A stretch of DNA of 32,403 nucleotides, from positions 1 to 32,403 of IMG/VR virus record IMGVR_UViG_2617270968_000008; one strand, 5' to 3'. Shown here piece after piece: positions 4,600 to 31,069 of the stretch. The notes beneath the pieces were generated by a model. The model was given only the letters and a program-made list of their open reading frames with translations, was not told the DNA's origin and ran no database searches. The position numbers and the translations under genes were made by a program. This DNA comes from a virus. Its lineage: Duplodnaviria > Heunggongvirae > Uroviricota > Caudoviricetes. Within the stretch, counting starts at the first letter, position 1, and each line of letters opens with the position of its first letter.

Positions 4600-5161
4600 T
4601 ATCGCGTCCTCAACAATGAATTTTGTGATGCGGTGCCTGGTGCCTCCAGGTGACGTTAACCAGTTAACAATTAACGCCGGATACAGAGAATCCACCCATA
4701 ACACTGTTTTTGGTTTTAACTGTTCCGCGTGCGCTCAGCCGCATTCACCACATCACAAAATTCACTTTAAAAAGGGCGGCAGAGCAGTCACGGAGTAAAA
4801 CTGATACCGCCAAACGTCACCAGAAAATTGATAACAGAGGGCGTTGCAGCGGGGTTGTCACTTAAGCGTATGGTCAACCTGACAACCCGGTGTCCTCAAC
4901 GGGGGAAGGAATACCCCCGCCATACTTACCGCCGCGCCATTTCGCGGATTGCCACAACCGGAAGCGCACGGTCGACGAAAATTTAACGACAGGCTATCTA
5001 TGAACCAGCTACCTCGCCGTGCGCTTTCGCGTTATGGTCTGACTTTTCAGGGAAATATCCTTTCAGTAAACTGTCAGTGCCGGATGCTCACCCGTGTCCG
5101 GCGCACGCACTCCACCTCACCCGTGGAGAACTCCTTAATCACCAACCCTCAGGAGGGTGAA

Positions 5162-10010: not shown

Positions 10011-10352
10011 ACGACTTTTACCAGAGAGCAGTTAATAGCTCACGCAGAGGAGACTATTGAAGCACAGAGACTGTGCATACCGGGCACAATCGACCATGAC
10101 ATCATCCGCACATATAAGATGGATATTGCTGTTCTGGAAATCGCACTGGTATCGCTGGCAGCAGAGCCAGCCGGTAAATTGCATGAATACAAACCAGTGG
10201 GATATCAGCGTCTGGTCGATGAGTTAACCATGCTGGTAAAGCAGTTAACCTGGCAACTGAGGAAAGCGAAGCCAGACTGCAAATTACCGGATAAGGCGAT
10301 GAGTTATCTGGAGCGGAACGGACTGATAAGCGTGGAGGATATTTTACGATGA
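10008..10352 (+). CDS. Hypothetical protein
   Basis: 114-aa ORF translationally coupled to the preceding paralogous ORF. Confidence 0.4.
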
Positions 10353-10432
10353 CCTGGCCTGAAGCATTAACAACGGTAGGAATTGCGATGGCGGTGGCGC
10401 TGGTGGTGTATTCGATTTGCCGCTGGGGATAA
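10349..10432 (+). CDS. Possible 27-aa hydrophobic peptide
   Basis: ATGA-coupled to the upstream gene; encodes [27 protein letters not shown], a single transmembrane helix; too short to call firmly. Confidence 0.2.
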
Positions 10433-10643
10433 AAACGGTTTGCGGGAAAAGGAGAGTTAAGTAGAATTGCAGCGGGTGCTTGAGGCTATCTGTCTCAGGC
10501 ATGAACACCAAAAGGCAGATAGAGAAAAGCCCCAGTTAACATTACGCGTCCGGCAAGACGCTTAACATTAATCTGAGGCCATATCTATGCTCTACACACG
10601 TAGGTTAGCCTCTTACGTGCCGAAAGGCAAGGAGAAGCAGGCT

Positions 10644-10799
10644 ATGAAGCAGCAAAAGGCGATGCTAATCGCCCTGATCGTCATCTGTTTAACCGTCATT
10701 GTGACGGCACTGGTAACGAGGAAAGACCTCTGCGAGGTACGAATCCGAACCGGCCAGACGGAGGTCGCTGTCTTCACAGCTTACGAACCTGAGGAGTAA
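10644..10799 (+). CDS. hokD: Hok/Gef family type I toxin (HokD/RelF-like)
   Basis: 51-aa product MKQQKAMLIALIVICLTVIVTALVTRKDLCEVRIRTGQTEVAVFTAYEPEE has the Hok/Gef signature (transmembrane helix, TRKxLCE, conserved C-terminal half). An in-frame upstream ATG at 10587 with its own GAGG gives a 70-aa Mok-like extended frame. Confidence 0.8.
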   Translation: MKQQKAMLIALIVICLTVIVTALVTRKDLCEVRIRTGQTEVAVFTAYEPEE

Positions 10800-10867
10800 G
10801 AGACCTGGCGGGGGAGAAATCCCTCGCCACCTCTGATGTGTCAGGCATCCTCAACGCACCCGCACTT

Positions 10868-10896
10868 AACCCGCTTCGGCGGGTTTTGTTCTTTTT
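10868..10896 (+). terminator. Rho-independent terminator downstream of hok
   Basis: Stem AACCCGC / loop TTCG / GCGGGTT followed by TTGTTCTTTTT; the same hairpin recurs at 12216-12243. Confidence 0.7.
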
Positions 10897-11043
10897 GTGA
10901 AAAAAATTCCCTTAAAGGAGATTTTTTTAACTAAAAAGGTTTACTTTGCTTTCGTATATGGTAAATTTTAGGAATTAGAATTTAAGCGCCCATCAGGCTT
11001 GCGTTAGGCAAGTCTGCTAAATCAACAAATTGAGGATAAAATC

Positions 11044-11403
11044 ATGGCACTCACTGAATTCGGTAAGGCCGTTAGAAAAGCGAGGATCGATACTGACAGT
11101 ACTCTTCTGACTATGTCTCAAGAACTGGGCACTACGCCAGCGTTTCTTAGCGGTTTAGAAACTGGTAGCAAAAAAATACCTCTGAAGTGGGTTAAGAAGA
11201 TTGATTCTTACTTCAAGGCCAAAGGTGTAGAAATTGAAGGGTTACAGGAGCTAGCGGCAGTTGCGAATGACTCAGTTCCAGTAAACGGTTTGTCTCAGCA
11301 ACAGAAAATGCTTGTAGCGGGATTCGCTAAGTCGCAGTTTACGCCGGAACAGCTAAAGAGTTTTGCAGATTTATTGCAAAAGATTAATAACAATGAGGGG
11401 TAA
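11044..11403 (+). CDS. XRE-family HTH transcriptional regulator
   Basis: 119-aa ORF with GAGGA RBS; N-terminal HTH-like segment; 2 nt upstream of the ImmA-like peptidase gene. Confidence 0.65.
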   Translation: MALTEFGKAVRKARIDTDSTLLTMSQELGTTPAFLSGLETGSKKIPLKWVKKIDSYFKAKGVEIEGLQELAAVANDSVPVNGLSQQQKMLVAGFAKSQFTPEQLKSFADLLQKINNNEG

Positions 11404-11405
11404 TT

Positions 11406-11882
11406 ATGTATCAAATGAGAGGTAACAGGGTGTCACCGATGCAAGAAGAAGAAATAGCCTACAGAGCTATAAACTTCTGTAATGCTATTGGTCTTACAGC
11501 CTCAAAGCGCAAAAGAAAGCGTTATGATATGTTCTTTGAAAGCCTGTCAATTTATGGGGTTACTCTTGACGTCAGGACCGACAAAGAGTGGGAGGCTCTG
11601 ACGTATGATCTAACTATCGGACATTGTGACCCCGCTTCTCTAACAATTACGGTTCCCAATAAAATATATGTGAATGCTTGCCTTGGGGAAGAGCATGCAC
11701 TTGCTGTTATCTTCCACGAGCTAGGTCATTTGCTTCTTGGACACAAAGCAGTTTTACACTTTTCAGTTAAAGAACCTACTCGTATTGAGGATGCAGAATG
11801 GCAGGCAGATACATTTGCGGATATCGTACTGGAAACAATTGGCGTGAGAACACAACAGATGTCGTTCGATTTTTATATGTAA
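11406..11882 (+). CDS. ImmA/IrrE-family zinc metallopeptidase
   Basis: 158-aa ORF with HExxH motif (VIFHELGHLLLGH) and downstream acidic residues; the classic partner of an XRE regulator. Confidence 0.65.
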   Translation: MYQMRGNRVSPMQEEEIAYRAINFCNAIGLTASKRKRKRYDMFFESLSIYGVTLDVRTDKEWEALTYDLTIGHCDPASLTITVPNKIYVNACLGEEHALAVIFHELGHLLLGHKAVLHFSVKEPTRIEDAEWQADTFADIVLETIGVRTQQMSFDFYM

Positions 11883-16519: not shown

Positions 16520-16595
16520 GGCCCTTTAGCTCAGTGGTGAGAGCGAGCGACTCATAATCGCCAGGTCGCTGGTTCAAATCCAGCAAGGGCCACCA
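16520..16595 (+). tRNA. ileZ: tRNA-Ile2 (anticodon CAU, lysidine type)
   Basis: Folds as a canonical cloverleaf (acceptor GGCCCTT/AAGGGCC, D-arm GCTC...GAGC, anticodon loop CTCATAA, T-loop GGTTCAAATCC, encoded CCA); closely resembles recalled E. coli ileX. Confidence 0.8.
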
Positions 16596-16604
16596 TATCA
16601 CATA

Positions 16605-30485: not shown

Positions 30486-31069
30486 TGGCATTCAGAATGA
30501 GTGAACAAGCACGGACCATAAAAATTTATAATCTGCTGGCCGGAACTAATGAATTTATTGGTGAAGGTGACGCATATATTCCGCCTCATACAGGTCTGCC
30601 AGCAAACAGTACCGATATTGCACCACCAGATATTCCTGCTGGCTTTGTGGCTGTTTTCAACAGTGATGAGGCATCGTGGCATCTCGTTGAAGACCATCGG
30701 GGTAAAACGGTTTATGACGTAGCGTCAGGGGACGAGTTATTTATTTCTGAACTCGGTCCGTTACCGGAAAATGTTACCTGGTTATCGCCGGAAGGGGAGT
30801 TTCAGAAGTGGAACGGCACAGCCTGGGTGAAGGATACGGAAGCAGAAAAAATGTTCCGGATCCGGGAGGCGGAAGAAACAAAAAACAACCTGATGCAGGT
30901 AGCCAGTGAGCATATTGCGCCGCTTCAGGATGCTGCAGATCTGGAAATTGCAACGGAGGAAGAAACCTCATTGCTGGAAGCCTGGAAAAAGTATCGGGTG
31001 TTGCTGAACCGTGTTGATACATCAACTGCACCTGATATTGAGTGGCCTACGAACCCTGTCAGGGAGTAA
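30485..31069 (+). CDS. tfa: Tail fibre assembly protein Tfa
   Basis: 194-aa product closely resembles recalled lambda Tfa ([79 protein letters not shown]). Confidence 0.9.

What the first reader, a model, noticed from the sequence alone, without database searches (positions are those of the whole stretch)
10540..10800. Stand-alone Hok toxin with an in-frame Mok-like extended start and no relBE neighbours
The 51-aa Hok/Gef-family toxin is not preceded by relB/relE as in the Qin relBEF operon. Instead an in-frame ATG 57 nt upstream (10587, with its own GAGG) would give an N-terminally extended 70-aa product, and a hairpin (10807-10828) sits immediately after the stop. Classical hok loci are controlled by an overlapping leader ORF and an antisense Sok RNA made from the opposite strand across the leader start. 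A weak TTGCCT-17-TAACCT promoter-like element on the minus strand around 10595-10625 could drive such an antisense RNA. Whether this copy is an active, regulated toxin is open.
Basis: partly seen in the sequence, partly recalled or inferred. Interest (0 to 1): 0.5.

Follow-up and report, generated by a model that had tools for sequence, protein, structure and literature searches.

The report
Ordinary prophage hok/mok/sok toxin-antitoxin locus
This is a complete, textbook hok/mok/sok RNA-controlled toxin-antitoxin cassette sitting in a Rac-like lambdoid prophage of E. coli. It matches the hokW-sokW locus already studied in Shiga-toxin phages and is present in most E. coli genomes, so it is ordinary.

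Summary
A 51-aa Hok toxin lies at 10644-10799. An in-frame ATG at 10587, preceded by GAGG, gives a 70-aa product. A hairpin follows the stop, TTGCCT-17-TAACCT lies on the minus strand, and no relB or relE is present anywhere in the window.

It is not an oddity. It is the complete form of the hok/mok/sok type I toxin-antitoxin family. Rfam RF01794 matches the whole leader (10474-10649) at 117 bits against a threshold of 59. The predicted 420-nt mRNA closes its 5' end (tac) onto 10849-10861 (fbi). The antisense strand folds like Sok. The locus is 93% identical to the annotated mokW/hokW/sokW of phage 933W/Sp5, which was shown experimentally to be a working toxin-antitoxin pair.

The in-frame 70-codon mok is also annotated at K-12 hokC (mokC) and is normal for this clade. 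The K-12 relBEF hokD is the 5'-truncated copy. Most complete E. coli genomes examined (3927 of 5426) carry DNA covering at least 80% of the locus.

Verdict: already known, low interest. One side observation may merit follow-up. The roughly 20 nt targeted by the Sok 5' tail are about ten times more variable than the rest of the locus.

The parts
10440..10467 (+). Putative hok/mok promoter: TTGCGG (10440-10445), 16 nt, TAGAAT (10462-10467). The predicted start, 10474, is 7 nt downstream of the -10.
   Evidence: Read directly from the sequence. The -10 is nearly invariant in 123 related loci, while the -35 varies. K-12 hokC has TATAAT at the same position. It did not pass the generic promoter scan.
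10474..10893 (+). Predicted full-length mok-hok mRNA, about 417-420 nt.
   Evidence: The Rfam RF01794 match begins at 10474 and the intrinsic terminator lies at 10868-10885 plus a T-run. The fold has MFE -173.2 kcal/mol and z = -6.4 against shuffles.
10474..10485 (+). tac element, the 5' end GGGUGCUUGAGG.
   Evidence: In the MFE of the full-length RNA it pairs with 10849-10861. Locally it also pairs with 10491-10502, giving a metastable-type hairpin in the truncated RNA.
10474..10649 (+). hok mRNA leader, matching the Rfam family 'sok' (RF01794), which is modelled on the hok-sense strand.
   Evidence: 117.1 bits against a gathering score of 59, E = 1.4e-27, full model 1-157. The orientation is shown by K-12: the match lies on the hokC strand and spans the sokC complement.
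10529..10535 (+). ucb / anti-SD (GCCCCAG), which pairs with the mok Shine-Dalgarno region.
   Evidence: In the MFE of the full-length RNA, 10529-10535 pairs with 10573-10579.
10575..10578 (+). mok Shine-Dalgarno sequence, GAGG.
   Evidence: Read from the sequence. Invariant across 123 related loci. The GAGG mok SD is defined for R1 in PMC9841398.
10587..10799 (+). mok reading frame: 70 codons, in frame with hok and sharing its stop codon.
   Evidence: It is 91% identical to the annotated MokW of 933W and 72% identical to K-12 MokC, both also in-frame extensions.
10525..10595 (-). Predicted Sok antisense RNA, about 71-77 nt. Its 5' end is at 10595 and its 3' end at about 10519-10525.
   Evidence: Coordinates were transferred from the annotated sokW (AF125520) and sokC (K-12) through alignments. 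It folds as a 5' single-stranded tail, a long hairpin and a U-rich tail, with z = -4.95.
10602..10630 (-). Sok promoter: -35 TTGCCT (10630-10625), 17-nt spacer, -10 TAACCT (10607-10602).
   Evidence: The stretch is identical to 933W/Sp5. The -10 hexamer is the site replaced in the sokW 'pro-less' construct (primers YO-421/422). It is conserved, with mean minor-allele fraction 0.019.
10631..10634 (+). hok Shine-Dalgarno sequence (GGAG, within AGGAGAAG at 10630-10637).
   Evidence: Read from the sequence. Invariant in related loci. Homology with the K-12 relBEF hokD begins here.
10644..10799 (+). hok toxin gene, 51 aa.
   Evidence: Pfam HOK_GEF E = 2.9e-23. Identical to K-12 HokD. PGAP names the identical protein WP_000813254.1 'type I toxin-antitoxin system toxin HokD'.
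10806..10829 (+). 3'-UTR hairpin with a GAAA loop. It is probably the 3' stabiliser of the processed mRNA, not a terminator.
   Evidence: It forms in the folds of both the full-length and the 3'-shortened RNA and has no U-tract. The role is inferred from R1, where the last stem-loop of the truncated hok mRNA protects it against exonucleases (PMC9841398).
10849..10861 (+). fbi element, CCUCAACGCACCC, complementary to the 5' end.
   Evidence: MFE and duplex calculations. The pairing is kept with compensatory changes in distant loci: GGGUGC/GCACCC versus GGCGC/GCGCC.
10868..10893 (+). Intrinsic terminator of the hok mRNA.
   Evidence: Terminator scan: 7-bp stem with 5 GC pairs, followed by TTGTTCTTTT. 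It is shared with K-12 hokD but replaced in 933W.

Best explanation
The region 10440-10893 is a complete hok/mok/sok type I toxin-antitoxin cassette of the hokC/hokD/hokW clade. It is carried in the early-right region of a Rac-like lambdoid prophage.

The proposed mechanism is inferred from homology with R1 hok/sok and Sp5 hokW-sokW.

1. A weak constitutive promoter makes a stable mRNA of about 420 nt. Its 5' end (tac) is clamped to a 3' element (fbi).
2. In that closed form the mok ribosome-binding site is buried by an upstream complementary box, so nothing is translated.
3. Slow 3' trimming removes fbi and opens the leader.
4. Ribosomes then start at mok (ATG 10587), and their passage allows initiation at hok (ATG 10644).
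5. While the prophage DNA is transcribed normally, a short unstable antisense RNA (Sok, 10595 to about 10525, minus strand) pairs through its 5' tail with the mok start region. This blocks mok, and therefore hok, and marks the duplex for RNase III.
6. When Sok synthesis stops, the stable mRNA outlives Sok. This could follow loss of the element, a transcription block, or prophage induction. The 51-aa Hok peptide is then made, inserts in the inner membrane and kills or lyses the cell.

What is shown here: every sequence and structural element is present and conserved. What is inferred: that the RNAs are made and that the switch operates.
For: - Toxin: Pfam HOK_GEF domain, 100% identical to HokD.
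- Leader: Rfam hok/sok model matched over its full length at 117 bits against GA 59.
- Long-range pairing: the full-length RNA fold closes 5' GGGUGCUUGAGG on 3' CCUCAACGCACCC, z = -6.4. The same 5'-3' pairing recurs with compensatory substitutions in IncF-plasmid, Aeromonas and Vibrio loci.
- SD sequestration: the mok SD is paired with GCCCC in that fold.
- Antisense RNA: it folds as tail, hairpin and U-tail, z = -4.95.
- Closest relative: 93.3% DNA identity to 933W mokW/hokW/sokW, with an identical Sok promoter, hok SD and fbi.
- Sok 5' end: the sokW and sokC 5' ends both map to 10595.
- Experimental support in the relative: HokW is toxic, sokW from its own promoter neutralises it, and mutating the same -10 hexamer abolishes protection. 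sokW RNA and hokW mRNA were seen on Northern blots (PMC8621323).
- Selection: strong conservation of all functional elements across 123 related phage-borne copies.
Against: - No expression data exist for this copy.
- Both promoters are weak by consensus and fail a generic scan.
- Thermodynamic folding of the 3'-shortened RNA does not by itself produce the tac-ucb 'open' conformation.
- The Hok here differs from HokW at 4 C-terminal residues, and the Sok tail differs at 6 of 16 nt.
Confidence: 0.9

Rival explanations
1. The locus is a silent remnant. It is carried along with the prophage but neither kills nor is regulated, as was concluded for several chromosomal hok loci.
For: Native chromosomal hokA, hokB and hokC loci were reported unable to mediate post-segregational killing (cited in the preprint). 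The K-12 copies are disrupted: IS186 lies next to hokC and relBE replaces the hokD leader. The promoters are weak by consensus.
Against: Every element is intact: both promoters, tac, ucb, mok SD and ATG, Sok hairpin and tail, hok SD, ORF, fbi and terminator. Functional elements are far better conserved than the flanks across 123 copies. The 93%-identical hokW-sokW is functional.
Confidence: 0.08
2. The 70-aa in-frame Mok-Hok polypeptide is itself a functional product, either an N-terminally extended toxin or a modulator, and not merely a by-product of translational coupling.
For: In this clade mok reads straight into hok, so translation from 10587 necessarily yields a Hok with 19 extra residues. 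112 of 129 unique clade sequences keep the frame.
Against: The mok frame is not conserved in the family. R1-type loci have mok 58 nt upstream in the +1 frame. A sub-clade of 10 sequences has a 19-codon mok ending in an ATGA overlap with hok. The first codons of the extension fall in the most variable part of the locus. For R1, the act of translating mok was shown to matter, not the Mok product (PMC9841398).
Confidence: 0.1
3. The biological role is abortive-infection defence against other phages, not prophage addiction or help with lysis.
For: [quoted passage not shown]
Against: The closest relative was shown to act at prophage induction, doubling release of Sp5 progeny. The preprint found no enrichment of hok next to defence systems. 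These roles are not mutually exclusive, and none was tested here.
Confidence: 0.25

Closest known systems
mokW/hokW/sokW of Stx2 phage 933W and Sakai prophage Sp5 (AF125520; Takada et al. 2021, PMC8621323)
   Same: It has the same architecture: a 213-nt in-frame mok, a 156-nt hok and an antisense RNA of about 71 nt over the mok start. DNA identity is 93.3%. The Sok promoter, hok SD, tac and fbi are identical, and it also sits in a lambdoid prophage.
   Different: Hok differs at four C-terminal residues (T45V, A46D, P49S, E51K). Six of the first 16 Sok nucleotides differ. The terminator region downstream of fbi is different. The prophage backbone is different: Rac-like next to ompW, not an Stx phage.
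hokD (relF) of the relBEF operon, Qin prophage, E. coli K-12
   Same: The Hok protein is identical. The DNA is nearly identical from the hok SD (10630) through the 3' UTR, fbi and terminator. PGAP names the window's gene hokD.
   Different: K-12 lacks everything upstream of the hok SD: its own promoter, tac, ucb, the mok start, the Sok gene and the Sok -10. relB-relE occupy that place, and there is no Rfam leader match. The window has the full leader and no relBE.
hokC (gef)/mokC/sokC of E. coli K-12
   Same: The leader is the same (Rfam 118 bits). mokC is in frame, 57 nt upstream of hokC (69 and 50 aa). The sokC 5' end maps to the same position, and the Mok proteins are 72% identical.
   Different: The Sok hairpin here carries an extra 18 nt. 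The K-12 hokC 3' region is interrupted next to IS186 and has no fbi partner.
hok/mok/sok (parB) of plasmid R1 and related IncF plasmids
   Same: The order of elements is the same, as are the Rfam family, the 70-codon mok, the position of the Sok promoter (TTGCGC-17-TATCCT versus TTGCCT-17-TAACCT) and the tac/fbi pairing.
   Different: The Hok protein is only about 43% identical. mok lies 58 nt upstream and so is in the +1 frame, not in frame. It is plasmid-borne.

Membership tests
hok/mok/sok type I toxin-antitoxin family | Small hydrophobic toxin with the Hok/Gef domain | tested here: met
   Pfam PF01848 E = 2.9e-23 over profile positions 1-42 of 42. Identical to K-12 HokD.
hok/mok/sok type I toxin-antitoxin family | Conserved structured mRNA leader upstream of hok | tested here: met
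   Rfam RF01794 at 117.1 bits against GA 59, full-length match 10474-10649 on the hok strand.
hok/mok/sok type I toxin-antitoxin family | Overlapping upstream reading frame (mok) with its own SD, starting about 57-58 nt before the hok ATG | tested here: met
   GAGG at 10575-10578 and ATG at 10587, 70 codons. Homologous to the annotated mokW and mokC. R1-type mok lies at 58 nt. Translational coupling itself could not be tested.
hok/mok/sok type I toxin-antitoxin family | Antisense Sok gene across the mok start, with a promoter between the mok start and the hok SD, a 5' single-stranded tail, a hairpin and a U-tail | tested here: met
   Promoter TTGCCT-17-TAACCT at 10630-10602, positionally identical to the sokW promoter mutated in PMC8621323. 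The antisense RNA fold has z = -4.95. The annotated sokW and sokC map onto 10595 to 10519/10525.
hok/mok/sok type I toxin-antitoxin family | Long-range 5'-3' pairing (tac/fbi) that closes the full-length mRNA | tested here: met
   The MFE pairs 10474-10485 with 10849-10861. The duplex energy is -29.8 kcal/mol, and 5 of 200 shuffles did as well. Compensatory changes appear in distant loci.
hok/mok/sok type I toxin-antitoxin family | mok SD sequestered by ucb in the closed form, and a tac-ucb switch after 3' processing | tested here: inconclusive
   SD-ucb pairing is present in the full-length MFE. The MFE of the 3'-shortened RNA shows the local tac hairpin, not tac-ucb. Energy minimisation cannot settle a kinetic switch.
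hok/mok/sok type I toxin-antitoxin family | Both RNAs expressed, Sok unstable, hok mRNA stable and 3'-processed, duplex cut by RNase III | not testable with these tools
   This needs Northern blots or RNA-seq. It has been shown for R1 and partly for hokW-sokW in the literature.
hok/mok/sok type I toxin-antitoxin family | Toxicity of Hok and neutralisation by the cognate Sok | not tested
   Shown for HokW/sokW, with 47 of 51 residues identical. Not done for this sequence.
relBEF operon (Qin-type relB-relE-hokD) | relB and relE immediately upstream of hok, co-transcribed with it | tested here: not met
   tblastn with K-12 RelB and RelE gives no hit in the window (E > 4). The upstream ORFs are small phage proteins of unknown function. 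Homology to the K-12 operon starts only at 10630.

The most novel reading that the evidence does not exclude
The roughly 20 nt around the mok start codon (10580-10601) form the target of the single-stranded 5' tail of Sok. This stretch is a hypervariable specificity cassette.

- Among otherwise near-identical phage-borne hokD/W loci it differs at 37% of positions per pair, against 3.5% at four-fold degenerate sites of hok.
- It falls into at least 7 major haplotypes whose Sok tails differ by 2-9 of 16 nt (4-9 for all but one pair).

This could reflect diversifying selection for mutually orthogonal Sok antitoxins, so that co-resident prophages (median 2 and up to 9 places matching this locus per E. 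coli genome) cannot neutralise each other's toxin. The evidence does not exclude the duller reading. Under that reading these are simply the only unconstrained positions of a locus in which even synonymous sites are held by RNA structure.
Probability: 0.3. Interest if true: 0.45.

Novelty: already known. Interest (0 to 1): 0.1.

Why it matters
For the finding as stated, it matters little. The locus is a known, widely distributed and already annotated kind of type I toxin-antitoxin cassette. Its closest relative has been characterised experimentally.

There are two practical points.

1. PGAP annotates only the 51-aa 'hokD' CDS here, without mok or Sok. That makes a complete regulated cassette look like an orphan toxin, which is probably why it drew attention.
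2. The name hokD invites a wrong comparison with the truncated K-12 relBEF copy.

The side observation of a hypervariable Sok-recognition segment would, if confirmed, give a simple natural system for studying how antisense antitoxins keep their specificity among many co-resident paralogues.

Tried and rejected
- The generic sigma-70 scan of 10300-11050 found neither the hok nor the Sok promoter. Its single hit (TTAACA-18-TATGCT, + strand, 10562-10591) is no more than the shuffled expectation (1 found, 0.6 expected), so I disregarded it.
- Folding the 3'-shortened mRNA (10474-10846) was meant to show the 'open' tac-ucb form. The MFE gave the local 5' hairpin instead, so that feature stays inconclusive.
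- The 5'-3' duplex search was uninformative for two loci. In K-12 hokC the 3' region is lost next to IS186 (82 of 200 shuffles did as well). In the R1-type locus L006 an alternative pairing scored best (44 of 200 shuffles did as well).
- The Klebsiella variicola plasmid locus L008 and the relBE-hok plasmid locus L011 gave no Rfam leader match at the gathering score. They were not used for structure comparison.
- The first IMG/VR scan, with the 70-aa protein, returned only 96-100% identical copies, which is too little diversity. A second scan with a conserved 5'-end DNA pattern gave the diversity used for the variability profile. It fixes 10474-10496 by construction, so conservation there is not evidence.
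- The test of whether co-resident loci carry different Sok tails had only 4 informative same-genome pairs, 3 different and 1 identical. That is too few to conclude anything.
- Literature searches for Sok cross-talk, specificity or diversifying selection in hok/sok found nothing relevant.
- The isrK, ceN48, mir-9457 and rsmX Rfam hits are all far below their gathering scores. I treated them as chance or as reflecting a generic hairpin plus terminator.

Full report
**1. What is in the sequence**

- The window carries a 51-aa ORF at 10644-10799 (+). It matches the Pfam Hok/Gef domain over its whole length (E = 2.9e-23) and is residue-for-residue identical to HokD (RelF) of E. coli K-12.
- An ATG at 10587, 57 nt upstream and in the same frame, extends it to 70 aa. 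GAGG lies at 10575-10578.
- A 9-10-bp hairpin with a GAAA loop lies at 10806-10829. It has no U-tract. The real terminator is the stem at 10868-10885 followed by a T-run.
- The minus strand carries TTGCCT (10630-10625), 17 nt, TAACCT (10607-10602).
- K-12 RelB and RelE have no relative anywhere in the 32.4-kb window (tblastn E > 4).

**2. Context**

The window is 99.8% identical over 23 kb to prophages in several E. coli chromosomes. In strain SCPM-O-B-12142 the element lies next to ompW. It carries integrase, excisionase, exonuclease, dicB, racR, ydaT-like, replication genes, DUF977, small ORFs, 'hokD', an HTH/ImmA-IrrE pair, DUF968, rusA, an antiterminator, tRNAs, lysis genes and terminase. 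A window-wide Rfam scan also finds DicF, two STnc100 copies, IS009 and two tRNAs. This is a Rac/Qin-like lambdoid prophage, and the hok locus sits in the early-right 'nin-like' region.

**3. The locus is a complete hok/mok/sok cassette**

- *Leader.* Rfam family RF01794 ('sok') matches 10474-10649 over the full model at 117.1 bits against a gathering score of 59 (E = 1.4e-27). This Rfam model is built on the hok-sense strand and covers the whole leader. In K-12 it matches the hokC strand (L004 754-602) and spans the complement of the annotated sokC (653-711). So the match reports a conserved hok leader that contains the Sok target, not the Sok RNA itself.
- *Long-range pairing.* The predicted full-length mRNA (10474-10893) folds with z = -6.4. 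In the MFE its 5' end GGGUGCUUGAGG is paired with CCUCAACGCACCC at 10849-10861. This is the tac/fbi clamp that defines hok mRNAs. The mok SD is paired with GCCCC at 10529-10533, the ucb.
- *Conservation of the clamp.* The same 5'-3' pairing is found in seven other loci that match the Rfam leader. These include Aeromonas (GGGUGCUUG/CAAGCACCC), Vibrio (GGGUGCUCUUGG/CCAACGAGCACCC) and IncFII plasmids (GGCGCUU/AAGCGCC), so it persists through compensatory changes.
- *Antisense RNA.* The antisense strand from 10595 to 10518 folds as a 5' single-stranded tail, a long hairpin and a U-rich tail (z = -4.95). This is the shape of Sok.

**4. Closest relatives**

- *933W/Sp5.* The region is 93.3% identical to the locus annotated mokW/hokW/sokW in phage 933W (AF125520). 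There mokW (213 nt) is likewise an in-frame extension of hokW (156 nt), and sokW (71 nt) is antisense across the mokW start.
- *Sok coordinates.* Transferring sokW through the alignment places Sok at window 10595-10525. Transferring K-12 sokC gives the same 5' end, 10595. That is 7 nt downstream of the TAACCT hexamer.
- *Experimental support.* Takada et al. (PMC8621323) showed that HokW is toxic and that sokW expressed from its own promoter neutralises it. A 'promoter-less' mutant loses protection, and sokW in trans partly restores it. Both RNAs are seen on Northern blots. After mitomycin C, sokW disappears, HokW accumulates in the inner membrane in a RecA-dependent way, and phage release doubles. 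Their mutagenic primers (YO-421/422) replace TAGGTTAG with CCGGCTCG.

**5. 'No relBE' and 'in-frame Mok' are not anomalies**

- *relBE.* Alignment with the K-12 relBEF region shows near-identity from 10630 (the hok SD) to the terminator and no similarity upstream. K-12 hokD gives no Rfam leader match. The K-12 copy is therefore the 5'-truncated one, with relBE in place of the promoter, tac, ucb, mok start and Sok gene. The window has the complete form.
- *mok frame.* MokC of K-12 (annotated as 'regulatory protein MokC') and MokW are both in-frame extensions and align with the 70-aa product here at 72% and 91% identity. Among 129 unique sequences of this clade, 112 have the 57-nt in-frame arrangement. 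Ten have 56 nt, giving a 19-codon mok that ends in an ATGA overlap with the hok start. R1-type loci have 58 nt, a +1 frame and 70 codons.
- *Interpretation.* The frame is therefore not what is conserved. The position of the mok start is. This fits the published conclusion that translation of mok matters, not its product (PMC9841398).

**6. Distribution**

- DNA matching the 461-nt locus occurs in 4939 of 5426 complete E. coli genomes. In 3927 of them it covers at least 80% of the locus, with a median of 2 and up to 9 places per genome.
- It also occurs in 110 GenBank phage records, at least 1685 plasmids and at least 594 IMG/VR contigs, 42 of which have a 100% identical 70-aa product among the best 80.
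- A 2026 preprint catalogues 44,248 Hok homologues and reports enrichment in prophages.
- PGAP annotates only the 51-aa 'hokD' CDS at the identical loci, with neither mok nor Sok.

**7. Mechanism**

I commit to the standard hok/sok mechanism set out under Best explanation. In short, a stable, closed mRNA is opened by 3' trimming, hok translation is coupled to mok, and repression comes from an unstable antisense Sok that pairs over the mok start.

- *Shown here:* the presence, arrangement, predicted folding and conservation of all elements.
- *Inferred:* transcription, processing, coupling and killing.
- *Biological role:* the role in this prophage is open. It could be addiction, help with lysis at induction as for Sp5, or exclusion of other phages.
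- *A caution:* some native chromosomal hok loci were reported not to mediate post-segregational killing.

**8. A side observation**

In 79 pattern-retrieved phage-borne loci at least 80% identical to the window, the 19 positions flanking the mok ATG (10580-10601) differ at 37% of sites per pair. The other parts of the locus vary far less:

| Region | Pairwise difference |
|---|---|
| 19 positions flanking the mok ATG (10580-10601) | 37% |
| Four-fold degenerate sites of hok | 3.5% |
| Sok promoter / hok SD stretch | 3.4% |
| Rest of the leader | 6.5% |
| 3' UTR | 6.5% |

- The ATG and GAGG are invariant.
- At least seven common haplotypes exist. Their predicted Sok 5' tails differ at 2-9 of 16 nt (4-9 for all but one pair). 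Cognate tail-target duplexes score -23 to -26 kcal/mol, and non-cognate ones -3 to -20.
- Three of four same-genome pairs carry different haplotypes, which is too few to test anything.

This could reflect selection for orthogonal antitoxins among co-resident prophages. It could equally be relaxed constraint on the only unpaired, non-coding-relevant positions of a heavily structured RNA. I found no description of it in the searched literature, but that search covers open-access papers only.

**9. Verdict**

The object is a known, annotated and very common kind of element with an experimentally characterised near-identical relative. It is already known and of low interest.

Noticed in passing
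window 10580-10601 (both strands): The target of the Sok 5' tail, around the mok ATG, is hypervariable among otherwise near-identical phage-borne hokD/W loci. Pairwise difference is 0.37 against 0.035 at hok four-fold sites. There are at least 7 major haplotypes with 2-9 of 16 tail nucleotides different (4-9 for all but one pair). This may mark orthogonal antitoxin specificities.
   Followed up: partly
window 10349-10432 (+): A 27-aa hydrophobic ORF ([27 protein letters not shown]) is not annotated in the near-identical prophages examined. Its ATG overlaps the stop of the upstream 114-aa ORF (ATGA). It is conserved in phage 933W (L001 2410-2493), where it is also unannotated. There is no Pfam or NCBIfam hit. 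It may be a small membrane peptide lying just before the hok promoter.
   Followed up: partly
window 11044-11882 (+): Immediately downstream of the hok terminator lies an HTH protein (119 aa) followed by an ImmA/IrrE-type metallopeptidase (Peptidase_M78, 158 aa). This two-gene module is often linked to mobile-element regulation or defence. It is also present in the identical prophages.
   Followed up: no
window 10782-10785 (+): The Tyr47 codon of hok is TAC followed by G, within CUUACGAA. A 2026 preprint states that hokC, hokD and hokE mRNAs undergo TadA A-to-I editing that recodes a Tyr to the second Cys, as in hokB. The motif is intact here, and the TAC codon and following G are invariant in related loci.
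   Followed up: no
window 10808-10889 (+): A sub-threshold Rfam match to isrK, an sRNA of a Salmonella prophage, covers the hok 3' UTR hairpin and terminator (27.2 bits against a gathering score of 50, E = 0.002). It probably reflects only the hairpin-spacer-terminator layout.
   Followed up: no
L011 1-747 (Citrobacter sp. Y3 IncFIB plasmid NZ_CP050011.1): A relB-relE-hok arrangement also occurs on a plasmid, with a Hok only about 41% identical to the one here and no Rfam hok leader. Capture of a leaderless hok behind relBE is therefore not unique to the K-12 Qin prophage.
   Followed up: no
IMG/VR loci such as L155, L188, L133: A sub-clade (10 of 129 unique sequences) has the mok ATG 56 nt instead of 57 nt before hok. 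This gives a 19-codon mok whose TGA stop overlaps the hok ATG (ATGA), a termination-reinitiation layout instead of an in-frame read-through.
   Followed up: partly
window 4774-4825 (-), 16946-17139 and 17415-17603 (+), 30828-31026 (+): Other known RNA elements occur in the prophage: DicF (76.7 bits), two copies of STnc100 (138 and 132 bits) and IS009 (224 bits), plus two tRNAs at 16520-16678.
   Followed up: no
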